Virus genome (UHGV): UHGV-0819168
Reading direction: 5' to 3' (one strand)
Origin: a virus
DNA length: 10,131 bases
Under the pieces are notes generated by a model that did not search any database, had not been told where the DNA came from, and saw only the letters and a list, made by a program, of their open reading frames with translations. The position numbers and the translations under genes are program-made. Below are positions 1 to 10,131 of the stretch, in pieces. Each line of letters starts with the position of its first letter. Within the stretch, counting starts at the first letter, position 1.

Positions 1-127
1 GCGCTGACAGCTTTACCTGGTGATCTTCAGCATCTTCCCGGGCTATTGTGGTTCGCGCAGTGGCTGATTTTGCTGACATCACCACAGGGGGCAGACGGAC
101 CATTGAACCATGGCCTCCGGAACAAAT
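1..127. repeat. Direct repeat copy 1 (127 bp, identical to 2177-2303); left boundary cut by window start
   Basis: Base-for-base identity of 1-127 with 2177-2303; identity stops at 128 (ttt) versus 2304 (aag). Confidence 0.9.
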
Positions 128-797
128 TTTCAGGAAGGTACTGATCGATGTTTTCCGGGAAGCTCAGCAAACGGGCGATGTCCCGCCAGGCTTTAACCCT
201 GCAGAATCGGCAAAAAAACCGCAGGTGCGGATATCAAGACAGCGACTGACTTTTGATGAGTGGATGATGATTTATAACGCAGCGGAAAAGGATGGTTACT
301 TTTTACAGCGCGGTATGCTGCTGGCACTGATGACAGGCCAGCGCCTTTCAGATATTTGCAAAATGCAATTTTCGGATATCCGGGATGGTTATCTTCATGT
401 CGAACAGCAAAAAACAGGAACCCGGATTGCCATCCCTCTGGCTCTGCGTTGCGATAAATTAAATCTCACCCTAGATGATGTGGTGTCATCCTGCCGCGAT
501 TGCGTTCTTAGTCCGTGGCTATTGCACCACCATCACGCGAAAGGGACAGCTAAGCGCGGCGGGATGGTTAAGCCAGCAACATTAACCGTTGCATTTAAAA
601 AAGCCCGGGATTCTGTGGATTACAACTGGCGTGCTAATGGCACCCCACCCTCTTTCCATGAGCAGAGATCTTTATCAGAGCGATTGTTCAGAGAGCAGGG
701 GGTTGATACCAAAATTTTGCTGGGCCATTCGAATCAAAAAATGACCGATATTTACAACGACGCACGCGGTAAGGAATGGAAAAAACTGGTCATTTGA
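48..797 (+). CDS. int: Tyrosine recombinase / phage integrase, lambda Int-like catalytic domain; probably 5'-truncated (in-frame TGA at 21-23, homology to Int begins just after the direct repeat)
   Basis: Translation matches lambda Int C-terminal half as recalled: RLTFDEW..IYNAAE, LLALMTGQRLSDICKMQFSDIRDGYLHVEQQKTGTRIAIP (lambda LAVVTGQRVGDLCEMKWSDIVDGYLYVEQSKTGVKIAIP), PPSFHEQRSLSERLF, LLGHSNQKMTDIYNDARGKEWKKL. Catalytic Arg, His-x-x-Arg and Tyr positions present. Stop TGA at 795-797. Confidence 0.85.
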   Translation: MVRAVADFADITTGGRRTIEPWPPEQIFRKVLIDVFREAQQTGDVPPGFNPAESAKKPQVRISRQRLTFDEWMMIYNAAEKDGYFLQRGMLLALMTGQRLSDICKMQFSDIRDGYLHVEQQKTGTRIAIPLALRCDKLNLTLDDVVSSCRDCVLSPWLLHHHHAKGTAKRGGMVKPATLTVAFKKARDSVDYNWRANGTPPSFHEQRSLSERLFREQGVDTKILLGHSNQKMTDIYNDARGKEWKKLVI

Positions 798-803
798 TGA
801 CCA

Positions 804-837
804 GTTTTGCAGAGGGGTTTTGCAGAAGTTTTGCAGA
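804..837 (+). promoter_or_regulatory. Three tandem copies of GTTTTGCAGA (804-813, 817-826, 828-837) immediately 3' of int; candidate integrase arm-type binding sites (P'-arm-like)
   Basis: Exact 10-bp repeats spaced 13 and 11 bp apart (about one helical turn), directly after the int stop, in an AT-rich non-coding region. This mirrors the position of P'1-P'3 relative to int in lambda attP. Confidence 0.45.
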
Positions 838-1079
838 GAAAATTAAAAACGATATCCTGCGGAGAACATAAACACCCACGGATCCAGTCGTACCGAGTCT
901 TTTACGGTAGTAACACCAGATTTGTACTTAGCCGTGGTATCGATATCCATGTACCACACTGACATGTTTTAAAAAATGCAATAAGACATTGTATCTGAAA
1001 GAAAAAACAGGATTTGAGGCGCTTTTTTATACCGTTTTTCCGTGTTTTTAACTGCCTGATTTTATTGAAATCTTTTTTA

Positions 1080-1089
1080 GTTTTGCAGA
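1080..1089 (+). promoter_or_regulatory. Fourth copy of GTTTTGCAGA; candidate distal arm-type site (P-arm-like)
   Basis: Exact repeat of the 10-mer ~250 bp from the tandem triplet, within the same AT-rich non-coding tract. Confidence 0.35.
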
Positions 1090-1152
1090 AAGGATTTTTT
1101 GCTCGATCGCTTTAATTTTATACATTCCTGATAACGGAAATTTTTTTGCCCG

Positions 1153-1182
1153 TTGACAGTTTTTGTTCTCCGGGGCTATATT
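1153..1182 (+). promoter_or_regulatory. Sigma70-type promoter (TTGACA, 18-bp spacer, TATATT) reading toward the rha-like gene
   Basis: Consensus -35 TTGACA at 1153-1158 and near-consensus -10 TATATT at 1177-1182, preceded by an A/T-rich UP-like tract (1136-1147). Confidence 0.6.
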
Positions 1183-1190
1183 CCTCACAC

Positions 1191-1264
1191 AACCGCAAAA
1201 TCGGTTGTCGGGATTGGCGTCTCGGATAACATCACAACGCATAGCCGCGTTTGCGGTTTTTTTT
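1191..1264 (+). terminator. Terminator-like or attenuator structure in the leader: 9-bp perfect long-range stem (1191-1199 with 1250-1258) followed by T8; possible small RNA of ~75 nt
   Basis: aaccgcaaa at 1191-1199 is the exact reverse complement of tttgcggtt at 1250-1258; a run of eight T follows (1257-1264); it begins at the predicted transcription start of the 1153 promoter. Confidence 0.35.
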
Positions 1265-1424
1265 GCGTTAAGCATTGCCACATTCGCATTATGGTGGGGC
1301 GTGCAGGGGCGGAGAAATCCGCGCCGGGTTTTGTGATGACCGGTTACGCCAACCCTGTACGTCTCACCACCTCCCTGATTGGCGTCAGAGGTGGTGATCA
1401 TCCAATTAATTGGAGTCATCACAT

Positions 1425-1982
1425 ATGAATACAGCTATAACTTTTTCTAACGAGTCACCAAAAGTCTTTTTCAAAGATGGTCGCCTGGTTACCACCTCTC
1501 AAGCTGTTGCCGACTACTTCGATAAACAACATAAACACGTTTTAGCTAAGATTGACACACTCGACTGCTCTCCCGAATTTACATCAGCCAACTTTTCGGC
1601 CGATGTTCAGACTGTCGAAATTGGCAACGGCGCAGAACGTGAATCACGATGCTACCTGATCACAAAAGACGGCTTCATGTTCCTCGTAATGGGATTTACT
1701 GGCAAAAAAGCAGCCAGACTAAAAGAAGCTTACATTGAAAAATTTAACGCAATGGAAGAAGAACTCCACAAACGTCCTCCTGCAGCACAAAACTCCCCCG
1801 CCCCAAATAATGGATGCGCATTACTGATCCACTTCGATAAACACGGTCAGGTCGAGTTCACAGAAAAAGTCCCCGCCGATGCGATGGTATGCACGCTGGA
1901 ACGGTTTAAATTTTATCTGGAGCAACATGGGTGGATCGTTGCCCGTAAAGAACAATTGGTGGAAAGGTTGATGCGGTTTTAA
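1425..1982 (+). CDS. Rha-family phage regulatory protein (antirepressor-like); ORF track 1410-1982, ATG 1425 with GGAG at 1412-1415 is the likelier start
   Basis: N-terminal Rha signature: VTTSQAVADYFDKQHKHVLAKIDTL and YLITKDGFMFLVMGFTGKKAARLKEAYIEKFNAMEEEL. Followed by an intrinsic terminator. Confidence 0.8.
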   Translation: MNTAITFSNESPKVFFKDGRLVTTSQAVADYFDKQHKHVLAKIDTLDCSPEFTSANFSADVQTVEIGNGAERESRCYLITKDGFMFLVMGFTGKKAARLKEAYIEKFNAMEEELHKRPPAAQNSPAPNNGCALLIHFDKHGQVEFTEKVPADAMVCTLERFKFYLEQHGWIVARKEQLVERLMRF

Positions 1983-1993
1983 TGAATGCAAAA

Positions 1994-2022
1994 CCCCGGA
2001 TGATCACCGGGGTTAATTTTAT
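1994..2022 (+). terminator. Rho-independent terminator after the rha-like gene
   Basis: GC stem ccccgg (1994-1999) / ccgggg (2007-2012) with loop atgatca, followed by T-rich ttaatttt. Confidence 0.6.
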
Positions 2023-2176
2023 CGAGCGTGATTGCCGCTAATCGCCATCGCTCTGATTGAGCGTAAATCATTCAGGTTATTCAGTTCTTCCTTCTGCTCT
2101 CGCTGACGTCAATAAATCCCATCATTGCGATCAACCTCATCCTTAACCATTGATGCGAGCAGTTCTTCCAGTTTCT

Positions 2177-2303
2177 GCGCTGACAGCTTTACCTGGTGAT
2201 CTTCAGCATCTTCCCGGGCTATTGTGGTTCGCGCAGTGGCTGATTTTGCTGACATCACCACAGGGGGCAGACGGACCATTGAACCATGGCCTCCGGAACA
2301 AAT
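2177..2303. repeat. Direct repeat copy 2 (127 bp, identical to 1-127)
   Basis: Perfect identity to window positions 1-127 at a constant offset of 2176; flanks differ on the right side. Confidence 0.9.
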
Positions 2304-2343
2304 AAGGGCAAAAATAACAACCACTATCGAAAGCTCACAAACT

Positions 2344-2477
2344 AACCGCAGCACGTTCCTGCATACGACGTGTCTGCGGCATAATCCCAATGATTACTCC
2401 CTGACAGGATTTGCAGGCCACTCAATATCAGGTGCAGTTGATGTATCAACACGATTCAACAATACCCGATATTTATT
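2344..2477. repeat. Direct repeat A (~134 bp, ~90% identical to 3394-3526): 3' end of a tfa gene plus a 34-bp imperfect palindrome (2346-2379)
   Basis: Alignment by eye with 3394-3526; contains the last ~28 codons of the minus-strand tfa-like ORF and the palindrome ccgcagcacgt...acgtgtctgcgg. Confidence 0.85.
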
Positions 2478-2663
2478 CCATGCCTCCAGCAACGATCTTT
2501 CTTCCTCCGTTGCGATTTCCAGATCTACAGCATCCTGCAGTGGCGCAATATACTCACTGAATTCCTGGATGTAGAACTGTGTGGTGACGGTCTTCCAGCC
2601 ATTCGGCTCCTGCTGTATCGAAGCATACCAGGCTATTTCAATATCGCTATGCTGCGGCAGCAT
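2394..2663 (-). CDS. tfa: Tail fibre assembly protein, lambda Tfa-like C-terminal domain (89 aa; short, possibly chimeric or remnant)
   Basis: C-terminal 55 aa match lambda Tfa as recalled: [54 protein letters not shown] versus [56 protein letters not shown]-terminal 35 aa unrelated. Confidence 0.6.
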
Positions 2664-2690
2664 TTAACCCCTTGTAATTCATCGCCATAA

Positions 2691-2719
2691 TTGATTTAAT
2701 TCACAAATAAAACTATAAC
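2691..2719 (+). promoter_or_regulatory. Candidate sigma70 promoter for the methyltransferase gene (TTGATT, 17-bp spacer, TATAAC)
   Basis: -35-like TTGATT at 2691-2696 and -10-like TATAAC at 2714-2719. Its position implies a very short leader and use of ATG 2732 rather than ATG 2720. Confidence 0.35.
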
Positions 2720-3388
2720 ATGGTGAAATCAATGAAAAAAAACACAGATGATGGGGCTAAAATTTACACACCACTTACCCTAAAGCTTTATGACTGGTGG
2801 GTTTTGGGAGTATCAAATCGGCTTGCATGGGGATGTCCTACAAAGGAACACCTTCTTCCACACTTTCTGGAACATGTAGGTAACAACCATCTGGATATTG
2901 GTGTTGGAACTGGGTTTTACCTTACTCACGTACCTGAGAGTAGTCTGATATCTTTAATGGATTTGAACGAAGCTAGCCTGAACGCGGCATCTACAAGGGC
3001 TGGGGAATCAAAAATTAAACATAAAATTAGCCATGATGTTTTTGAACCTTATCCCGCGGCGTTACATGGTCAATTTGATTCCATTTCCATGTTTTACCTT
3101 CTTCACTGCCTGCCTGGAAATATATCTACAAAAAGCTGTGTAATACGCAATGCGGCGCAGGCCTTAACTGACGATGGAACTCTATACGGAGCCACAATTC
3201 TTGGCGATGGAGTTGTGCACAATAGCTTCGGTCAAAAACTGATGCGCATTTACAATCAGAAAGGCATCTTTTCAAACACAAAAGATTCCGAAGAAGGCTT
3301 AACACATATACTCTCAGAGCATTTCGAGAATGTTAAAACCAAGGTTCAAGGTACTGTAGTAATGTTTTCCGCTTCAGGGAAAAAATAG
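2720..3388 (+). CDS. Class I SAM-dependent methyltransferase (Rossmann fold, ~220 aa, substrate unknown); AT-rich moron; alternative start ATG 2732
   Basis: Motif I hh-D-h-G-x-G-x-G (HLDIGVGTGFY), post-I acidic residue (SLMDLNE), motif II (FDSISMFYLLHCLP), motif III (LTDDGTLYGATIL) in canonical order. No DPPY/NPPY or C5-cytosine MTase motifs. Markedly lower GC than flanking genes (about 37% in a hand-counted 60-nt line at 3001-3060). Confidence 0.75.
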   Translation: MVKSMKKNTDDGAKIYTPLTLKLYDWWVLGVSNRLAWGCPTKEHLLPHFLEHVGNNHLDIGVGTGFYLTHVPESSLISLMDLNEASLNAASTRAGESKIKHKISHDVFEPYPAALHGQFDSISMFYLLHCLPGNISTKSCVIRNAAQALTDDGTLYGATILGDGVVHNSFGQKLMRIYNQKGIFSNTKDSEEGLTHILSEHFENVKTKVQGTVVMFSASGKK

Positions 3389-3393
3389 CATCC

Positions 3394-3526
3394 AACCGCA
3401 GCACGTTCTTGCTTAAGACGTGCTGCGGCATAATCCCAATGATTACTCCCTGACAGGGTTCGTAGGCCACTCAATATCAGGTGCAGTTGATGTATCAACA
3501 CGGTTCAGTAACACCCGATACTTTTT
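3394..3526. repeat. Direct repeat B (~133 bp, ~90% identical to 2344-2477): perfect 11-bp-stem palindrome (3396-3428) plus a 27-codon tfa 3' fragment ending in a TAG where Trp is expected
   Basis: ccgcagcacgt (3396-3406) / acgtgctgcgg (3418-3428) perfect inverted repeat. Minus-strand translation of 3446-3526 gives [27 protein letters not shown], preceded by TAG at the Trp position. Confidence 0.85.
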
Positions 3527-3574
3527 CTAGGCTTCCACCACCAGCACGACAAGATGCCGCATACAGTGAACCAG

Positions 3575-3769
3575 TCAGTCCAGTTTTCAGACAACCAGTG
3601 CGTCACCTTTTTGAAGGCGCTTTAAAGCACGTTTTAATCCAGGTCGGCCTGTCCTTGTTCCGCTTAATTTATCTTCAAATATTTGTTCATATCCTGCACA
3701 AACAAGAGCGTTTCGTTGCAGATCTGTATTCTGGTCATTTGTTGATACCCTTACATAGCCAATCAGCAC
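3575..3769 (-). pseudogene. pin: pin/gin-family serine DNA invertase, 5' remnant only (~60 codons; TGG to TGA nonsense then loss of the remaining ~120 codons)
   Basis: From GTG 3769 (RBS gggag upstream): MLIGYVRVSTNDQNTDLQRNALVCAGYEQIFEDKLSGTRTGRPGLKRALKRLQKGDALVV-stop-KLD-stop. This matches the Pin/Gin/Hin/Cin N-terminus including the catalytic Ser in VRVSTNDQ, and stops where Pin continues WKLDRLGRS. Confidence 0.8.
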
Positions 3770-3823
3770 GCTGAATCTCCCGTCCAAAAGCACAAATCAT
3801 GCCATGCAGGCCAGAAACCGCCA

Positions 3824-3849
3824 TTATCTAAAACCTCGGTTTACAGGAA
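3824..3849 (+). other. Gin/Pin-family 26-bp inversion crossover site (pix/gix-like, right-type orientation)
   Basis: ttatctaaaacctcggtttacaggaa; reverse complement ttcctgtaaaccgaggttttagataa differs at one position from the gix sequence as recalled. Lies ~50 bp upstream of the pin start. Confidence 0.7.
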
Positions 3850-3894
3850 ACGGTAAACAAGGCTGGTAACGCCGTTCAGCGTTCCGGCGATAAA

Positions 3895-4863
3895 ATGACC
3901 GGAGAACTGAAAATTGGCACGGTGAATGCGCTGCGAATTTTCAATGATGCCTTCGGTCTTATTTTCCGTCGTTCAGAAGATTTTCTTCATTTCATTCCGA
4001 CGGCTGAAGGACAAGGCGAAAACGGTGATATCGGCCCATTAAGGCCATTCGCTATAAATCTGAGAACAGGTGCTATATCTGTCAGCCACGGGGCCAAAAT
4101 TGATGGTGGGCTGGCGCTTGGTACAGATAACGCACTGGGCGGTAATTCCATTACTCTCGGAGATAACGACACTGGTATTAAACAGGGCGGCGACGGTGTC
4201 CTTTTATTCTATTCAAATGGACAACTGGCATTTGGGCTTCAACCCGCATCTGCTGATTTTTATAAGCGGGTTGCATATATTCATCAGGGAATAATTCCTG
4301 ATGGAAGTGGCGCATTTGCAGACCAGTTGAATAATGCCACCGCGCCTTTTGTTCAGACGCAGTTTGCCTGGAATCCCACTCCTGGTGGTCATTACGTGCC
4401 GATAGTTAAGGGCTTGTCCATTCGCAATGGACAGGGCTATCCCGGCGCGGTCAGCTTTGGGTATTTACTGACAGAACAGTATGGATTTCCGGTTCCATGT
4501 ATTCATATGCGTGGCGATGGCGGTAATGATGCTTTATGGCAGTTTAACCCGAACGATAAATCCTTTATTTCACCGGGTGCTCTTATTGCGGGTGGCGTCC
4601 GTTATAACACCGATGGAAATATATTTGGTGGGTGCTGGGGGTCAAACTTAAATGATTACCTGAATAGTTCTTTTATCAGAAATGTGCGTCTGGGAGGCAG
4701 ACGTTCTGACACATTATATCGCGGAGGACTTTGCGAACCAGGTAATGGTCATGTGACAACAGGATTGCAAATTATTGGTGAGGTTGATGGAGATGACTGG
4801 ATGGTGTCACGACCACTACAAAAATACATTTCTGGTAACTGGTATAACGTTGAACAGGCATAG
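3895..4863 (+). CDS. Silent alternative side-tail-fibre C-terminal cassette; open frame runs from the crossover site (3832) with no own initiation context, expressed only after inversion
   Basis: Frame open from 3832 through the 3824-3849 site in the same phase as stf through the 6905-6930 site. Shares LGGNSITLGDNDTGIKQGGDG and C-terminal RPLQKYISGNWYNV with the expressed stf C-terminus. Confidence 0.65.
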   Translation: MTGELKIGTVNALRIFNDAFGLIFRRSEDFLHFIPTAEGQGENGDIGPLRPFAINLRTGAISVSHGAKIDGGLALGTDNALGGNSITLGDNDTGIKQGGDGVLLFYSNGQLAFGLQPASADFYKRVAYIHQGIIPDGSGAFADQLNNATAPFVQTQFAWNPTPGGHYVPIVKGLSIRNGQGYPGAVSFGYLLTEQYGFPVPCIHMRGDGGNDALWQFNPNDKSFISPGALIAGGVRYNTDGNIFGGCWGSNLNDYLNSSFIRNVRLGGRRSDTLYRGGLCEPGNGHVTTGLQIIGEVDGDDWMVSRPLQKYISGNWYNVEQA

Positions 4864-4878
4864 CCATCAGGAGAATAT

Positions 4879-5406
4879 ATGCAACATCTGAAAAATATTA
4901 CCGCCGGAAACCCCAAAACCATTGAGCAGTATCAGCTTACGAAAAAAGCTGGCGTTATCTGGCTATATACAGAAGACGGTAAAAACTGGTATGACGAATT
5001 AAAAAACTTTCAGGATGATACTTTAAAAATAGCTTATGACCAGAAGGGGATTATTCGTTGTATTGAGAAAGACGTATCAACACTTAACCCTGACGGGTTA
5101 AGTGTTGTTGAGTTACCGAATATAACAGCCAACCGTCGCGCCGATATCTCGGGAAACTGGAAGTTTCTGGATGGTAAAGTAGTAAAGCGGGAATATACAA
5201 AACAGGAACTGCAACAGCAGGCAGAGTTACAAAAAGCCGCTTTGCTTTCCGAAGCGGAGTCTGTGATTCAACCGCTGGAACGTGCTGTCAGACTGAATAT
5301 GGCAACTGATGAGGAACGCACACGACTGGAATCATGGGAACGCTACAGCGTTATGGTCAGCCGTGTGGATACTGCAAAGCCTGAATGGCCACAGAAACCA
5401 GAATAA
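4879..5406 (+). CDS. tfa: Tail fibre assembly protein (second copy, partner of the silent fibre cassette)
   Basis: [38 protein letters not shown].. is 60-70% identical by eye to the 5437-5970 Tfa; C-terminus ..[31 protein letters not shown] is the Tfa C-terminal pattern. AGGAG RBS at 4867-4871. Confidence 0.85.
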
Positions 5407-5416
5407 CAACAAATTA

Positions 5417-5436
5417 AGGCCCGTACGGGCCTTTTC
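5417..5436. terminator. Bidirectional intrinsic terminator between the convergent tfa genes
   Basis: Perfect palindrome ggcccgtacgggcc (5417-5430) flanked by A-rich sequence on one side and T-rich (ttttctt) on the other. Confidence 0.6.
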
Positions 5437-5970
5437 TTATTCTGGTGGTTCCGGGAATGTTACAGGAAGAACCGAGGTATCAGTTGTCTCAACCTGTTGC
5501 ACGTATCGCATCCAGTTCATCAGTTGCTGTCTGTCTGAATCAGTGATAATCCCCAAAGTAAGCTGTGTTTGCCAGAACTGCGTTTTTTCTCTGGCCTGCT
5601 GTAATAATATTTTTTTCTGGTTTTCCGTCTGTAGGCGCAACTCTTCTTCGGTATATACACGTTTAATGACTGCGCCATCTTTAAACATCCATTTACCTGA
5701 GTCGTCAGCACGCCGGTTGGCGGTAATATCAGGAATCTCAACGACGCTATAACCTTCAGGGTTAAGTGTGGAGGCATCTTTGGTTATGGCAACAATAATA
5801 TTATTTTCATCGTAAACAATCTTTATGGTGTCTGGCTGAAAGTTTTTCACTTCCTCATACCAGTTTTTTCCGTCCTCAGAGTAAAGCCAGATAACTCCGT
5901 GTTTCTTTGTTAACTCATACTGTTCCAGTGTTTTAGCATTACCCGCTTTTATGTTCTTTAAGTGCATCAT
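5437..5970 (-). CDS. tfa: Tail fibre assembly protein (currently expressed orientation), translationally coupled to stf
   Basis: [58 protein letters not shown].. matches the E. coli prophage TfaE/TfaR-type family. ATG lies 1 nt after the stf stop. Confidence 0.9.
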
Positions 5971-5971
5971 A

Positions 5972-8797
5972 TTAAACGCTCGCTACATTATACCAGGTGC
6001 CATTTATATACTTTTGAACGGGTCTGTAATAAACGCCCGCTATATTATCGGCAGAGTTAGACCCTGTATCCTGAACATTAATACCAGACAATACATGACC
6101 TGAAGGGCACTGGAAATTCCATGTTTGCCAGTTGTTCACTCCATAATATTGCTGTGAACCAAGTCGAACATCTTTCACATAACGGGAATCAAAGTTACCG
6201 TAATCCGAGGGGTTAACACGCCCTGTAATATTTATGGTTTTATTACTTTGAATGCTTCCGGAGACAAAGCGCATAACATGGACGTTATTAGCATAAACAT
6301 CCAGATTACCATCGCCATTTTGTTTAAAGCCCGTGTCATTATCACCCAATACAATCGAATTACCGCCAAGAGCACTGGATGTTCCGATACCCAGTGCACC
6401 ATTCAGTTGACCACCAGATAACGGCAGTGCACCAACATCTCCTGCTGAAGGCTTTCTGGTGGTGGTGTAAAATTCGGACCAGTCGGCTTCAAAACCATAA
6501 CCATCACGGGCTGAACGATAAAAAATACCGCCATTTTTATAATTAATCCGAAACTGAGCTGCAGGACAACTTCCTTCTCCCATATAAAAATGAATAATTA
6601 ACGTTGATGCACCACTAATAGTTGCGTTATAGGCTCCGCTACTCCAGTTCCATCCAACTGCTTTATCATTCGCAACGGTGCTTCCTGTTTTCCCTAAGGC
6701 AAACGCACCAACATGACTTGCTTTTAATGTGATATCGGAGGAACCATCAAAAGCCACATTGCTTATTTTCCTGGCAGTTTTTAATTTTGCAGCTGTAGAA
6801 GCATTGCCGGATAGTTCACCAGAAAGGCCACCGCTGAATGTTTGTCGATTAGTCCAGGTATTCGCTGTACTGAGTAACGGTATTTTCTCCCCGCTTGTGC
6901 CGAGTTCTCGTAAACCGAGGTATTCGATAACGGCGGCAACGGTCGATTTCGCAAGAATATCCCGCCCAACTTTTGTCAGGGTTGCCAGACTGGCAACATC
7001 ATTCCCCGTAAAATACGGAAACCTGTCTGCCGCAGTAGCAAGCCCGGCCAGCGCCGTCAGGGTGGCATCTTTCGGTTGCTTACCCGCAAGCGCGCTAGTC
7101 ATGGTGGTCGCAAAATTCGGGTCGTTGCCCAACGCCGCAGCCAGCTCGTTCAGCGTATTCAGTGCGTCAGGCGACGAGTCCACGAGGGCAGCGATCGCAG
7201 CCATAACATAAGCCGTGCTTGCGATTTGGGTATTATTCGTTCCCTGTCGCGCAGTTGGTGTTGTTGGCGTTCCGGTCAGTGCAGGACTATTTAAGGGCGC
7301 TTTCTTGTTCGTTTCACCCATTACCGCCTTAACCGCTTTTGGCGTTGCCGCCAGTGACTCGGAAGTGCTGTTGGTCGCACTGCTGAGCTGTACTATCCCC
7401 TTTTTCGTCGTGCTCGCATCCTCAAGCGCCACGGCGGATGCAATATCCTCTGCCCGTTTTGCCGCTGTCTCGGCGCGCGTTGCCGCGGATTCCGCCGTAC
7501 TTTTGCTCTGAGCTGCCGCCGTCGCACTGCCAGCTGCCTCTGTCGCCTTCGTGGATGCCGTCGTGGCGCTGCCCTTTGCTGCTGACGCCTGTCTGGTCGC
7601 CTCATCTTTTGAAGCAGACGCAGATGATGCCGATGACGCCGCTGAACTGGCTGACGATGCGGCTGCCGCCTTAGAGGAAGCAGCATTGTCTGCTGAAGTC
7701 TTTGCATTTGTTTCAGAGGTTTTTGCTGCAGAAGCAGACCTCGCTGCTGCAGTGGCTTGCTCAGTGGCTTTGCCAGCCTTCGTTGTGGCTGTTGAAGCGG
7801 ATGATGCGGCGCTTTCTGCCGATTTTCCGGCGGCGGTGGCACTGGCTGAGGCCTGCCCGGCACTTGTTGACGCGGCACTGGCAGATAATGCAGCCGCTGT
7901 TTTTGAACCTGCCGCAGCTGAGGCGCTCTGTCCCGCTGCTGTTTCAGAAGACTTAGCGTTCGTCTCGGACGTTTTTGCCGCCTTCGCGGAATTTCCTGCC
8001 GCCGTTGCCGAGGAAGCTGCACTACTGGCACTTGATGATGCATTCGTTTCTGAAGATTTCGCTGCCTCTTTTGAGGCCGCCGCACCCCGTGCCGAGGTGG
8101 CAGCTTCTGACGCCTTCGTGGTCGCTGTGGATGCAGAAGTGGCTGCCGATTTTTGTGATGCTGCGGCATTCGTTTCTGACGTTTTCGCGGCACTGGCGCT
8201 GGTAGCTGCCGCGCTTTTTGATGACTCTGCAGCAGCAGCACTTTTTGCTGCTTCACGGGCCTTTGTCGATGCCGTTCCTGCGCTGGAAGACGCTGACTGA
8301 GCCGACGACGCGGCCTGTCCGGCTGACGTGCTGGCGGCACGTGATGAGGCTGCAGCATCGGTTGCATGAGTTGCCGCCTCGCTGGCTGATGCACTGGCAT
8401 CGCTGGCTGATTTTTTCGCGGCTGCCGTATTCTGTGCAACCGCGGAGGCGTTACGTGACACCTCTTCTACCATCTGCTCAAAGCGGCGCAGTGCCTCCGG
8501 TCGGACATCATCCTCCGTCATGGCACCGAGAAAATCATTCAGCGTACCTGGTCTGGAACCTTCATAGACGGTAATGGTCCCGGCATGTGAAGGCGGAAAA
8601 CCTTCAACCAGCAGGGTGACGCTGTACTGACCATGCTCAACATCCATGCTGTAACGTCCGGCTTCATCCGGATTTTCAGAGGCCACCGTGTTCACCACCA
8701 CCGTGCTGCTGGTTCGTCTGGCCTTCAGCACAATGGTGCAGTTCTGTACTGGTTTTCCTGTGCCATCTTTAAGCACGCCAGAAATTTTTACTGTCAT
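5972..8797 (-). CDS. stf: Side tail fibre protein, lambda Stf-like (941 aa): conserved N-terminal domain, long Ala/Ser/Thr-rich repeat region, C-terminal ~310 aa encoded inside the invertible segment
   Basis: N-terminus [74 protein letters not shown] is near-identical to lambda Stf as recalled; repeated AAKTSETNA units; VIEYLG junction at the crossover site. Confidence 0.9.
6905..6930 (+). other. Gin/Pin-family 26-bp inversion crossover site inside stf (left-type orientation)
   Basis: ttctcgtaaaccgaggtattcgataa resembles gixL as recalled (TTCCTGTAAACCGAGGTTTTGGATAA), is inverted relative to the 3824-3849 site, and encodes VIEYLGLRE in the stf frame. Confidence 0.65.
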
Positions 8798-8811
8798 ACT
8801 TTTCCACCAAT

Positions 8812-8844
8812 AAAAAAAGCCCGCAGCAGTGACGCCACGGGCTT
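8812..8844 (-). terminator. Rho-independent terminator downstream of lom, 15 nt upstream of the stf start
   Basis: Minus-strand stem aagcccg / cgggctt followed by a T7 run (plus-strand aaaaaaa at 8812-8818). Confidence 0.6.
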
Positions 8845-8948
8845 CAGGACGGTGTAACTTTACGTTTCCTCAAACGCAGTTCACCCCATAAGGTGGATGA
8901 ACCTGCGTATCATAACAATATTTACAGAAGATAAATCGGCGTCTGTTG

Positions 8949-9548
8949 TCAGAAACGGTATCCGATACCAACAATAAATGCATCCGTTCGCCAGTCGCCA
9001 CTACCGGAACCTTCATAAGCAAGGTCAATGGTCACGGATTCGGTCGGGTTAAACTGCACGCCAGCCCCCCACGCCAGAGACGTGTTGCTGTGGCGACCGT
9101 CATCACTTCCGGTCAGCACATCGTGCGTTTTCCCCTTGTTGTCAGTTACGCGGAGATAATCCCCGGAGAAAGTCGACACACGGCTGTAAGCCACACCCGC
9201 CATCGCATACGCGCTGAACCATTCATTCACGCGTACAGACGGCCCCGCCATCACGCTGAACCAGCGGTTACGCACGGAATCTTCATGCCAGCGGGTATCG
9301 CTGTAGCGCGTTTTTTGCTCATCCTCAGCATTGGCATAACTGAAGGACGTAATCAGCCCCAGCGCGTCCGTAAACTCATAACGGTATTTCACGTTAATCC
9401 CGTTCAGATCATCACTACCGGGAACGTTCGTCGAGGCATGGAGATACCCCGCGCTCAGCGTGGACTGATGTTCTGCTGCACTCGCTGGCGTAGCAGCGGC
9501 GACCTGCCAGACTACTGCGGACAAAATAACAGCACATAATTTACGCAT
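8949..9548 (-). CDS. lom: Lom/Ail/OmpX-family outer membrane beta-barrel protein (lambda Lom homologue)
   Basis: Signal peptide MRKLCAVILSAVVWQVAAATPASA; motifs GINVKYRYEFTD, SVMAGPSV, SAYAMAGVAYSR, AYEGSGSGDWRTDAFIVGIGYRF match lambda Lom as recalled. RBS gagagg upstream. Confidence 0.9.
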   Translation of the reverse strand: MRKLCAVILSAVVWQVAAATPASAAEHQSTLSAGYLHASTNVPGSDDLNGINVKYRYEFTDALGLITSFSYANAEDEQKTRYSDTRWHEDSVRNRWFSVMAGPSVRVNEWFSAYAMAGVAYSRVSTFSGDYLRVTDNKGKTHDVLTGSDDGRHSNTSLAWGAGVQFNPTESVTIDLAYEGSGSGDWRTDAFIVGIGYRF

Positions 9549-9572
9549 AATTACCTCTCGCTTTTCTGCAAT

Positions 9573-9597
9573 AAAAAAGGCGCCATTTCTGGCGCCC
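9573..9597 (-). terminator. Rho-independent terminator between J and lom
   Basis: Palindrome ggcgcca / tggcgcc (9579-9597) followed on the minus strand by a T6 run (plus-strand aaaaaa at 9573-9578). Confidence 0.6.
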
Positions 9598-9615
9598 GTA
9601 TCTGGGTTATAAAAT

Positions 9616-10131
9616 TCAGCTAATCGTGATGCCTGCAGTGGCTTTCTTCATCACCACAACCAGCAAATCGCTGATACTTGCTGTGGGATACCAGTTATTT
9701 ACCAGCCATGCTGACACCGAAAACTCCAGTGTCATGTGACCGTGACCGGCAGGCATATCAATAACACCACTGTAAATCAGCGTATTATCCAGCGCGGTAC
9801 GGTTATAAATTTCAGCACCGTTTTTCCGCACTATCAGACGGCATGAGGAGTAAATATCAGTATGCTCTTTCTCATGTTTAGCGCCGCTGAATGCCACCGC
9901 CGGAATAACAATCTGCCGGTCAAACGGCTGATCGTCATAAACCCTGACGGTAATGGTTCCTGATGGCCACCGCTCCGGTGCACGGGAGTCCCGGGGGAAA
10001 GCTTTGCCCACTGTTTTAACGAGATCGCCTTCAATCTGGTTCGCGGACAATTTTCCCAGAACCCGACAGTTCTCGTTAATCGTGACGTTGTTGAGCGTCC
10101 CGGAGTTCGCATTCACGTTACCGCTGATATC
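9616..10131 (-). CDS. J: Tail tip / host specificity protein J, C-terminal receptor-binding region (partial; gene continues beyond the window end)
   Basis: [52 protein letters not shown] match the C-terminal part of lambda gpJ as recalled; the open frame continues to the window edge. Confidence 0.85.

What the first reader, a model, noticed from the sequence alone, without database searches (positions are those of the whole stretch)
798..1150. attP-like organisation downstream of int: GTTTTGCAGA arm-type repeats and a candidate core
Three exact copies of GTTTTGCAGA about one helical turn apart (804-837) sit directly after the int stop, as the P' arm sites do in lambda, and a fourth copy lies at 1080-1089. 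Between them, taccg-agtctttta-cggta (891-909) is a short inverted repeat that could be a core-type site pair around an overlap region. The tract is AT-rich with A and T runs, typical of IHF-bent att DNA. If this is a functional attP next to tail genes, the window has vegetative phage gene order (J-lom-stf-tfa ... attP-int) rather than the prophage order, where int and J are at opposite ends.
Basis: inference. Interest (0 to 1): 0.5.

Follow-up and report, generated by a model that had tools for sequence, protein, structure and literature searches.

The report
Phage attachment site at ompW, relic copy
This is the attachment site of a known family of lambda-like prophages that insert into the E. 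coli ompW gene: the repeats are very probably integrase arm sites, the proposed core is misplaced by about 45 bases, and this copy sits beside a truncated integrase gene, so it is ordinary biology.

Summary
The sequence observations hold. GTTTTGCAGA occurs exactly four times (804, 817, 828, 1080; 0.01 expected). The 891-909 inverted repeat exists but is chance-level.

The attP reading is right in outline. Window 122-968 is the int end of the published "PPompW" prophages, which integrate into ompW. Bases 843-968 (- strand) are a phage-borne copy of the ompW 3' end.

Both junctions of a single lysogen, compared with K-12 attB, place the exchange inside the shared block 934-968. P-arm allele differences at 962/965 suggest 934-961. 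The proposed core at 891-909 lies in a diverged stretch (26 differences, 861-933) that is not exchanged, so it is refuted.

The repeats behave as arm-type integrase sites. They stay invariant while their spacers mutate, and homology between P-arm alleles stops right after the fourth copy. Relatives with about 50% identical integrases (phage 21, e14, others) show the same layout of three sites after int plus one in the far arm, with variant motifs.

The vegetative gene order comes from a chromosomal junction where one element's int end abuts a resident prophage's P arm. Here int lacks codons 1-151, including the arm-binding domain. This is known biology with a small annotation gain.

The parts
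1..127 (.). Exact second copy of window 2177-2303, a fragment of a DUF4376 tail-fibre-region pseudogene. It joins the int fragment at a 6-bp microhomology (ACAAAT, 122-127).
   Evidence: One search shows two 127-nt copies at 100% identity. One search shows the junction next to EC15 int and next to 2277-2326. No collection searched holds this junction. A repeat of exactly 127 nt that starts at base 1 suggests the end of a k=127 short-read contig (inference).
122..797 (+). 3' two-thirds of the PPompW-type integrase gene (codons 152-376 and the stop). The arm-binding domain and part of the core-binding domain are missing.
   Evidence: 99.4-99.9% identity to the int genes of PPompW prophages and of E. 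coli EC15. The full-length protein has PF09003 at aa 2-71 and PF00589 at 193-367. The window fragment has PF00589 only. The join is at int nucleotide 456, codon 152.
804..813 (+). Arm-type site in the int-proximal (P') arm, copy 1 (GTTTTGCAGA), the copy furthest from the core.
   Evidence: It is invariant in diverged alleles whose spacers differ. The same position relative to the int stop is occupied in phage 21 and in the Providencia and Klebsiella relatives. In e14, lit, ymfE and ymfD now lie between intE and the repeats, which sit by the icd 3' end.
817..826 (+). Arm-type site in the P' arm, copy 2.
828..837 (+). Arm-type site in the P' arm, copy 3, the copy nearest the core.
   Evidence: In two alleles the first base is A (ATTTTGCAGA; L027 and L033).
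843..968 (-). Phage-borne copy of the ompW 3' end: 41 codons plus the stop codon at 843-845. After integration it completes the interrupted ompW gene.
   Evidence: PF03922 OmpW, E = 9e-14, matching profile positions 156-195 of 195. Annotated as a partial OmpW pseudogene in EC15. Lysogens carry a full 212-aa ompW that ends in this sequence.
861..933 (-). The stretch where the phage-type and native ompW 3' ends differ. It is not exchanged during integration.
   Evidence: 26 nucleotide and 7 amino-acid differences from K-12. The phage type stays on the int side and the native type stays on the yciE side within one lysogen. Other phage alleles encode other loop sequences, including one 5 residues longer.
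934..968 (.). Identity block shared by attB (K-12 ompW), both prophage junctions and the window: GTGGTATCGATATCCATGTACCACACTGACATGTT. This is the region where strand exchange must occur. Other alleles suggest 934-961.
   Evidence: Four-way alignments. P-arm alleles differ from ompW at 962 and 965. The published 121-bp att duplication corresponds to 841-961. A P'-side variant reaching 936 in L033 hints at 937-961.
934..957 (.). Candidate pair of core-type sites: GTGGTA (934-939) and TACCAC (952-957), inverted, with 12 bp between them.
   Evidence: One search lists it as TGGTA...TACCA at 935-956; reading the sequence extends each arm by one base. Of the four chance-level inverted repeats in the region, two overlap the exchange block, and this is the only one lying wholly inside the 934-961 subrange. 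The assignment is inference only.
969..1089 (.). P arm, distal to int and AT-rich. It holds a conserved 44-bp block (1046-1089) that ends at the fourth repeat.
   Evidence: 70.3% AT across 969-1150. In an alignment of about six distinct P-arm alleles, 1046-1089 is conserved and homology ends right after 1089.
1049..1061 (-). IHF-like site, AATCAGGCAGTTA, with one mismatch to WATCAANNNNTTR.
   Evidence: On its own it is chance-level in this window. It is conserved, though, and is a perfect match (AATCAATCAGTTA) in the P-EibA-type alleles (L008, L024) and the L017-type alleles (L017, L023).
1080..1089 (+). Arm-type site in the P arm (GTTTTGCAGA). It marks the outer limit of the att site.
   Evidence: It is retained in every P-arm allele examined (one has GTTTTGCAGG) although the flanks diverge completely beyond it. 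Phage 21 has an equivalent single copy 118 bp beyond the end of homology, and e14 has one at about 121 bp.

Best explanation
Window 798-1089 is a complete lambda-type phage attachment site, laid out as P' arm, core, P arm. It belongs to the lambdoid prophage family that integrates into the 3' end of the E. coli outer-membrane protein gene ompW ("PPompW").

How it most likely works. The cognate integrase is a 376-aa heterobivalent tyrosine recombinase. Its N-terminal arm-binding domain would bind the GTTTTGCAGA decamers: three just after int (804-837) and one about 112 bp beyond the core homology (1080-1089). Its core-binding and catalytic domains would act on a core inside 934-961. IHF-type bending of the AT-rich P arm probably helps to bring the arms to the core.

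Strand exchange with ompW splits the gene. The phage supplies a replacement 3' end (843-933 plus the shared block), so the lysogen keeps a full-length ompW. Only residues 185-194 of the protein change.

Why this copy looks vegetative. Here the site is not in a vegetative phage genome. It is a chromosomal P'-core-P junction of the kind made when a second phage of the family integrates next to a resident one. The int end of one element abuts the P-arm end (isrK/C4 RNAs, Rha, tail-fibre genes) of a widespread resident prophage. The left-hand element has lost int codons 1-151, with no xis ahead of the fragment in the window. This copy therefore cannot recombine by itself and could act only if integrase and excisionase were supplied in trans.

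Shown versus inferred. Shown here: the sequence anatomy, the position of the exchange block, conservation of the repeats across alleles and across the integrase clade, and the truncation of int. Taken from the literature: excision and attP formation in this family. Inferred: integrase binding to the decamers, the IHF site, the exact overlap region, and the tandem-then-deletion history.
For: Identity of the element. Window 122-968 is 99.4% identical to the int ends of 11 deposited PPompW prophages. Their authors annotate a 121-bp "duplication due to insertion" that corresponds to window 841-961. PMC8112680 reports mitomycin-induced excision and circularisation, and sequencing of the attP region of the ompW prophage.

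Position of the exchange. In the single lysogen SUISSEKPC3NDM5 the order is yciE, orphan native ompW 3' end, P arm ... int, P', complete ompW. Aligning both of its junctions with K-12 attB and the window shows that all differences left of 934 and right of 968 stay with their parent.

The repeats as arm-type sites:
- Four exact copies against 0.01 expected.
- The copies are invariant while the spacers change (GGG to AGA, A to G) in diverged alleles.
- Homology between P-arm alleles ends right after the fourth copy.
- Of 29 viral-contig hits to two adjacent copies, 19 are ompW-type. Two more (L028, L036) have the same triple repeat after integrases only 49-53% identical, next to a copy of the icd 3' end instead of ompW. 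The other 8 are unrelated.
- Phage 21 has GTTTTGGGGA three times after int and ATTTTGGGGA once in the P arm. e14 has (G)TTTTGATAA three times plus once. Providencia and Klebsiella relatives have RTTTTGG-type triples after int (their far arms were not checked).
- The full integrase carries PF09003, the lambda Int arm-DNA-binding domain. Several N-domain residues differ between the CAGA-type and GGGA-type integrases.

Chromosomal relic rather than virion. int is truncated at codon 152 and fused to a duplicated pseudogene fragment. Window 119-10131 is collinear with the EC15 chromosome. The right flank matches the yciE-side prophage end found in many complete genomes.
Against: No biochemical evidence for integrase binding to the decamers was found in the searchable literature.

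The IHF-like match is chance-level by itself.

The exact overlap region could not be fixed. Polymorphisms at 957 and 960 are not linked to either arm.

The DNA left of base 1 is unknown. The tandem-then-deletion history is therefore inferred, and the int truncation could in principle be an assembly artefact.

In EC15 the prophage that carries the ompW-type int ends next to zinT, not yciE. The history of these junctions can thus include rearrangements that I did not resolve.
Confidence: 0.85

Rival explanations
1. The window is part of a vegetative or excised phage genome with a functional attP. The int truncation would then be an artefact.
For: The order int, P', core, P arm, accessory genes, tail fibres is the vegetative order. 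A 31.5-kb record deposited as "Escherichia phage 204576" has this order with a full int and four repeats at +7, +20, +31 and +284 from the int stop. The family does excise.
Against: In the window int starts at codon 152 and is fused to a copy of bases 2177-2303. The right-hand 9 kb matches the EC15 chromosome, whose annotation there lists pseudogene fragments of tfa, the tail fibre, the recombinase and DUF4376. The same P-arm end is a normal yciE-side prophage junction in many complete genomes.
Confidence: 0.05
2. The source genome carries an intact tandem pair of prophages with a full-length int. The 1-127 fusion would be an assembly-graph artefact at a contig end, making the site a live hybrid att site rather than a relic.
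For: The duplicated stretch is exactly 127 nt and starts at base 1, as expected at the end of a k=127 de Bruijn contig. EC15 and PEC422 have the same junction with complete int and xis. The fusion junction was found in no collection.
Against: A de Bruijn edge leaving that 127-mer into int nucleotide 462 needs reads that span the junction, and only 6 bp of microhomology exist between the two partners. A false join is therefore unlikely unless the reads are chimeric (inference).
Confidence: 0.15
3. The GTTTTGCAGA repeats are binding sites for another protein (excisionase, or a regulator of int or of the neighbouring isrK/Rha module), or an RNA-level element, and not integrase arm-type sites.
For: No binding data exist. 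The fourth copy lies about 70 bp upstream of a strong sigma-70-like promoter at 1153-1182 that precedes the isrK and C4 RNA matches.
Against: The fourth copy is retained in P-arm alleles that lack the isrK promoter region entirely (P-EibA and L017 types). The three-plus-one layout follows the integrase gene through phage 21 and e14, which use a different target gene, and the motif changes together with the integrase N-terminal domain. Triple repeats also follow int in the dcp-adjacent Klebsiella relative. The triple repeat was never found upstream of unrelated genes. The 8 unrelated hits have two or more copies at 12- or 15-bp spacing, in unrelated sequence contexts.
Confidence: 0.07
4. The core is the inverted repeat at 891-909.
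For: It is a real 5-bp inverted repeat with a 9-bp spacer, and it lies between the repeat clusters.
Against: It is absent from attB: K-12 has TACGCTATCGTGTTGCTGT at that position. It lies in the unexchanged diverged segment. It is broken or replaced in other alleles that use the same site. Its frequency is chance-level.
Confidence: 0.01

Closest known systems
attP of the PPompW prophages of E. coli (Nakamura et al. 2021, PLoS Pathog 17:e1009073; records LC567818-LC567841)
   Same: It is the same element family. Identity is 99.4% over window 122-968, and the integration site in ompW is the same. The published 121-bp att duplication corresponds to window 841-961. Excision, circularisation and the attP sequence were determined experimentally.
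   Different: That paper defines the att sequence as the whole 121-bp duplication and does not mention arm-type sites. Here the exchange is narrowed to 934-961/968 and the arm sites are identified. The window copy sits at a prophage-prophage junction beside a truncated int, not in an intact inducible prophage.
attP of phage 21 and of the defective prophage e14, which both integrate into icd (Wang et al. 1997, J Bacteriol 179:5705; record M61865)
   Same: The integrases are about 50% identical. Each attP carries a replacement 3' end of the target gene. Each has three direct GTTTTGNNNA repeats in the int-proximal arm and one co-oriented copy 112-121 bp beyond the end of target homology. The phage 21 repeats span 395 bp. 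That fits the 366-418 bp minimal attP, bounded by "repeated dodecamers", which I recall from the abstract of that paper. The paper itself is not held.
   Different: The target gene differs (ompW instead of icd). The last four bases of the motif differ (CAGA, against GGGA in phage 21 and ATAA in e14). The int-proximal arm is shorter because the ompW replacement is shorter. In e14, lit, ymfE and ymfD lie between intE and the repeats. Two viral contigs combine the CAGA motif with an icd core, so arm and core specificities are not strictly linked.
Bacteriophage lambda attP (P1, P2, core C-O-C', P'1-P'3, IHF/Xis/Fis sites)
   Same: The logic is the same: a heterobivalent integrase with a PF09003 arm-binding domain, three tightly spaced arm sites next to the int stop, further arm site(s) in the other arm, and an AT-rich arm with IHF-type sites.
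   Different: The integrase is only about 37% identical to lambda Int. The arm motif is unrelated to the lambda one (recalled as C/AAGTCACTAT). Only one P-arm copy is detectable. The core lies inside a coding sequence that the phage must repair, so the int-proximal arm is longer.

Membership tests
Lambda-type (heterobivalent tyrosine integrase) attP | An adjacent integrase that has both an N-terminal arm-binding domain and a tyrosine recombinase catalytic domain | tested here: not met
   In the window only PF00589 remains, because codons 1-151 are missing. The full-length gene in EC15, SUISSE, PEC422 and the PPompW records has PF09003 (aa 2-71) plus PF00589. The site type qualifies; this copy has lost its own enzyme.
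Lambda-type (heterobivalent tyrosine integrase) attP | Repeated arm-type sequences on both sides of the core, unrelated in sequence to the core | tested here: met
   Three copies at 804-837 and one at 1080-1089, on either side of the 934-968 block. They are conserved across alleles and across the integrase clade.
Lambda-type (heterobivalent tyrosine integrase) attP | A short core shared with attB, within which the prophage junctions are exchanged | tested here: met
   A 35-bp block (934-968) is identical in attB, both junctions and the window, apart from one SNP at 957 in the SUISSE int-side junction. The flanks segregate as expected within one lysogen.
Lambda-type (heterobivalent tyrosine integrase) attP | Integrase binding to the arm and core sites; IHF-dependent intasome | not testable with these tools
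   There is only a conserved IHF-like match at 1049-1061. EMSA or footprinting is needed.
Lambda-type (heterobivalent tyrosine integrase) attP | Demonstrated excision and integration that form attP and attB | not tested
   Reported for the family in PMC8112680. Not testable for this copy.
Phage 21 / e14 integrase clade att sites (target-gene 3'-end replacement) | Integrase homologous to the 21 and e14 Int proteins | tested here: met
   50.1% identity to phage 21 Int and 49.9% to e14 IntE. tblastn E = 1e-123 to 1e-124.
Phage 21 / e14 integrase clade att sites (target-gene 3'-end replacement) | attP carries a diverged copy of the target gene's 3' end that restores the reading frame | tested here: met
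   843-968 encodes the last 41 OmpW residues. The lysogen's ompW is 212 aa like that of K-12, with 7 substitutions.
Phage 21 / e14 integrase clade att sites (target-gene 3'-end replacement) | Layout of three plus one GTTTTGNNNA direct repeats at the outer limits of attP | tested here: met
Vegetative (virion or circular) phage genome | Intact int and xis next to attP, with a contiguous functional phage genome | tested here: not met
   int is truncated and no xis precedes it in the window. The right-hand region matches an EC15 chromosomal stretch annotated with pseudogene fragments.

The most novel reading that the evidence does not exclude
The att region may also act as a lysogenic-conversion cassette. 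The only part of ompW that the phage rewrites on integration is residues 185-194, the connection between the last two beta-strands. From the 8-stranded barrel topology I infer this to be extracellular loop 4; that was not tested. Different phages of the family carry very different versions of this loop, one of them 5 residues longer, while the flanking strand codons stay conserved. If so, integration changes a surface feature of OmpW, which could alter susceptibility to OmpW-dependent phages or colicins. The variable segment would then be under diversifying selection rather than drifting.
Probability: 0.3. Interest if true: 0.45.

Novelty: already known. Interest (0 to 1): 0.2.

Why it matters
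The practical gain is annotation. The ompW prophage family is common in pathogenic and commensal E. coli and hosts secondary integration sites for Stx2 phages (PMC8112680).

Three points follow for annotating and reading such loci:
- The functional site spans about 804-1089.
- The exchange lies within 934-961/968, not across the whole 121-bp duplication.
- GTTTTGCAGA marks the arm sites.

These points allow cleaner calling of prophage boundaries and recognition of tandem or hybrid junctions. They also help the design of integration vectors.

The clade-wide series of motifs gives a ready-made system for studying how arm-site specificity diverges among related integrases that share targets: CAGA in the ompW type, GGGA in phage 21, ATAA in e14. 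None of this is surprising to a specialist.

Tried and rejected
Source of the window. I searched for the DUF4376'/int' fusion (window 110-144) in complete E. coli genomes, in one genome per species, in IMG/VR and in JGI metagenomes. None holds it, so the left flank stays unknown.

Narrowing the crossover. I tried to use the 957/960 polymorphisms seen in EC15, L019, L039, L040 and the SUISSE int-side junction. These are synonymous ompW variants that occur with either arm allele, so they are uninformative.

EC15 junctions. I fetched both flanks of the EC15 prophages to see its other two junctions. The prophage with the ompW-type int ends at zinT instead of yciE, which points to a rearrangement. 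I did not pursue it.

Literature. The 1997 phage 21/e14 paper (PMC179457) is not held. Searching the literature for the decamer string returned only unrelated primers.

IHF consensus scan. It is at chance level over the window (13 matches against 11.5 expected). Only the conserved 1049-1061 site was kept, and only as a weak inference.

Rejected readings. The 891-909 core was rejected by the junction alignments. A known RNA family inside 798-1150 was rejected because the Rfam matches lie outside it, at 1189-1263 and 1287-1374.

Full report
OBSERVATION

The decamer GTTTTGCAGA occurs exactly four times in the window, all on the + strand, at 804-813, 817-826, 828-837 and 1080-1089. Dinucleotide-preserving shuffles give a mean of 0.01 copies, and none of 200 reaches four. 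Allowing two mismatches adds no further copy inside 798-1150. The first copy starts 7 bp after the stop codon (795-797) of an ORF with a tyrosine-recombinase catalytic domain.

The inverted repeat TACCG-N9-CGGTA at 891-909 is present. Repeats of that size are at chance frequency in this stretch: 4 observed against 4.6 +/- 2.5 in shuffles. AT-richness is real only for 969-1150 (70.3% against about 51% elsewhere).

WHAT THE ELEMENT IS

Window 122-968 is 99.4% identical to the int ends of eleven deposited "PPompW" prophages. These are lambdoid prophages integrated in the E. coli ompW gene. Their authors annotate a 121-bp "duplication due to insertion" that maps to window 841-961.

The paper describing them (PMC8112680) reports that the ompW prophage excises and circularises after mitomycin C. 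It also reports that its attP region was sequenced and that the att sequence was taken to be 121 bp. Arm-type sites are not mentioned.

On the - strand, 843-968 encodes the last 41 residues of OmpW (PF03922, E = 9e-14). The phage therefore carries a replacement 3' end for the gene it interrupts, as phage 21 and e14 do for icd.

WHERE THE EXCHANGE HAPPENS

Strain SUISSEKPC3NDM5 is a clean single lysogen. Its gene order is yciE, orphan ompW 3' fragment, AT-rich arm, ash/Rha, tail and head genes, immunity region, exo, xis, int, triple repeat, complete ompW, yciC. The prophage is about 43 kb long.

I aligned both of its junctions with unoccupied K-12 ompW and with the window (other strains):
- From 861 to 933 the phage-type and native sequences differ at 26 positions.
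- The phage type stays on the int side, and the native type stays on the yciE side.
- From 934 to 968 all four sequences are identical (GTGGTATCGATATCCATGTACCACACTGACATGTT), apart from one synonymous SNP at 957.
- To the right of 968 the sequence is either ompW or the phage arm.

The exchange therefore lies within 934-968.

Other P-arm alleles differ from ompW at 962 and 965, and the published duplication ends at 961. Both suggest 934-961. One int-side allele that varies up to 936 hints at 937-961.

It is absent from attB and is broken or replaced in other alleles that use the same site.

Two of the four inverted repeats in the region overlap the exchange block. Only GTGGTA/TACCAC at 934-939/952-957 lies wholly inside 934-961. 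I offer it as a candidate core-site pair, without further evidence.

THE REPEATS

Several independent comparisons point to integrase arm-type sites.

1. Conservation against a mutating background. In diverged alleles (PEC422, SW070917, viral contigs) the spacers change (GGG to AGA, A to G) while the decamers do not.

2. The outer boundary. Across about six distinct P-arm alleles, a 44-bp block (1046-1089) is conserved, and homology stops right after the fourth decamer. The P-EibA prophage end is only 79.5% identical over 841-1089. Together with the L017-type allele it loses the downstream isrK promoter region entirely, yet both keep the decamer.

3. Genomic context of the motif. A scan of IMG/VR for two adjacent copies gave 29 loci:
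- 19 are ompW-type att regions.
- 8 are unrelated, with copies at 12- or 15-bp spacing in unrelated sequence contexts.
- 2 (L028, L036) have the identical triple repeat just after integrases only 49-53% identical to this one, followed by a copy of the icd 3' end instead of ompW.

4. The same layout across the integrase clade:
- Phage 21 Int is 50.1% identical. Phage 21 has GTTTTGGGGA three times at 11-46 bp after the int stop and ATTTTGGGGA once in the other arm.
- e14 IntE is 49.9% identical. In K-12, e14 has (G)TTTTGATAA three times by the icd 3' end and once in the icdC-side arm. Three genes (lit, ymfE, ymfD) lie between intE and the repeats.
- A Providencia phage and a Klebsiella phage (the latter next to dcp) have RTTTTGG-type triples after int. 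Their far arms were not checked.
- In phage 21, e14 and the ompW type, the single far-arm copy lies 112-121 bp beyond the end of target homology.

5. The enzyme. The full-length integrase has the lambda-Int arm-DNA-binding domain (PF09003, aa 2-71). Several N-domain residues separate CAGA-type from GGGA-type integrases. This is suggestive only.

The phage 21 repeats span 395 bp. That agrees with my recollection that Wang et al. 1997 placed the minimal 21 attP between 366 and 418 bp, bounded by repeated dodecamers. I could not retrieve that paper.

An IHF-like site at 1049-1061 has one mismatch here and is a perfect match in the P-EibA-type and L017-type alleles. As a bare pattern match it is at chance level.

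WHY THE ORDER LOOKS VEGETATIVE

In single lysogens the two halves of this region are about 43 kb apart. They are contiguous in only 21 of 5,426 complete E. coli genomes. Examples are EC15 and PEC422, where a full xis-int module abuts the P-arm end of a second prophage. Integration of a second phage of the family next to a resident one would produce exactly this arrangement.

The window is collinear with EC15 from base 119 to its end. The exceptions are an inverted tail-fibre segment and an IS element that only EC15 carries.

In the window, however, int begins at codon 152. It is fused, at a 6-bp microhomology, to an exact 127-nt copy of bases 2177-2303. The arm-binding domain is gone, and no xis precedes the fragment in the window.

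The fusion was not found in any searched collection. The duplicate is exactly 127 nt long and starts at base 1, so the window is probably a whole short-read contig that ends at a repeat (inference).

The simplest history is a tandem pair in which nearly all of the left-hand element was deleted. An assembly artefact is a lesser possibility.

Either way this is chromosomal prophage DNA and not a virion genome. This att copy could recombine only with integrase and excisionase supplied in trans.

COMPARISON AND VERDICT

The system is a lambda-type attP of the phage 21/e14 integrase clade. The specific element's att site is already published. This analysis adds the arm-site motif and layout, a narrower exchange region than the published 121 bp, and an explanation for the apparent vegetative order. 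It is ordinary biology with modest annotation value, so I score interest at 0.2.

The least ordinary thing seen is a side observation. The phage-borne ompW end rewrites only OmpW residues 185-194, and different phages carry very different versions of this stretch. It may be a surface loop.

Noticed in passing
window 861-933 (- strand); L009, L010, L014, L027 and L033 for other alleles: The phage-borne ompW 3' end changes only OmpW residues 185-194 (NYKLGGAQQH becomes KYKSGVTTVK). Other phages of the family carry quite different versions, one of them 5 residues longer, while the flanking strand codons are conserved. By barrel topology this is probably extracellular loop 4 (inference). Integration may therefore alter a surface feature of OmpW.
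   Followed up: partly
window 1153-1428: Just right of the att site there is a near-consensus sigma-70 promoter (1153-1182). It is followed by Rfam matches to the isrK sRNA (1189-1263, 72 bits) and the C4 antisense RNA (1287-1374, 76 bits), and then by a Rha-family gene (1410-1982). The ORF annotated as an "ash family protein" (1153-1428) overlaps both RNA matches. This looks like a Gifsy-1/P1-type antirepressor control module.
   Followed up: partly
window 1-127 and 2177-2303: An exact 127-nt direct repeat starts at base 1 and fuses a DUF4376 pseudogene fragment to int codon 152 at the microhomology ACAAAT. The length equals the usual largest assembler k-mer, so the window is probably a whole short-read contig. 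The junction occurs in no collection searched.
   Followed up: yes
window 3818-6936: A 3.1-kb tail-fibre segment bounded by 32-nt inverted repeats (84% complementary) is in the opposite orientation in the otherwise 99.8-99.9% identical EC15 chromosome. The adjacent invertase gene is only a fragment (annotated at about 3590-3769, - strand; ORF 3587-3793). Any recent inversion would need an invertase supplied in trans.
   Followed up: partly
window 2344-2491 and 3394-3540: Two repeats, 89-90% identical and about 1,050 bp apart, overlap tail-fibre-assembly gene fragments. They flank a class I SAM-dependent methyltransferase gene (2720-3388), as if that gene had been inserted as a cassette.
   Followed up: no
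L002, L011 and L012 (E. coli EC15, NZ_CM169486.1 at about 2.10-2.20 Mb): The EC15 prophage that carries the ompW-type int ends next to zinT rather than yciE. This implies a rearrangement or recombination between prophages at different sites. EC15 also has ISEc12 inserted in lom, which the window lacks.
   Followed up: partly
L036 5300-6060 (- strand): In this icd-type locus the int-proximal arm has GTTTTGCAGA three times, but the far arm carries GTTTTGATAA, the e14-type motif. It may be a hybrid junction between two different icd prophages, analogous to the window.
   Followed up: no
L039 (IMG/VR UViG_643886067), int-side junction: The same int and triple repeat are joined, after ...GTACCAGACCG, to a clearly diverged ompW (encoding GMTVWYMDIDTT). 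The family therefore also lysogenises hosts with a different ompW allele, possibly another species.
   Followed up: no
window 7697-8191: Five diverged copies of a 33-nt unit, at spacings of 84-150 nt, lie inside the 941-aa tail-fibre gene (5972-8797, - strand).
   Followed up: no
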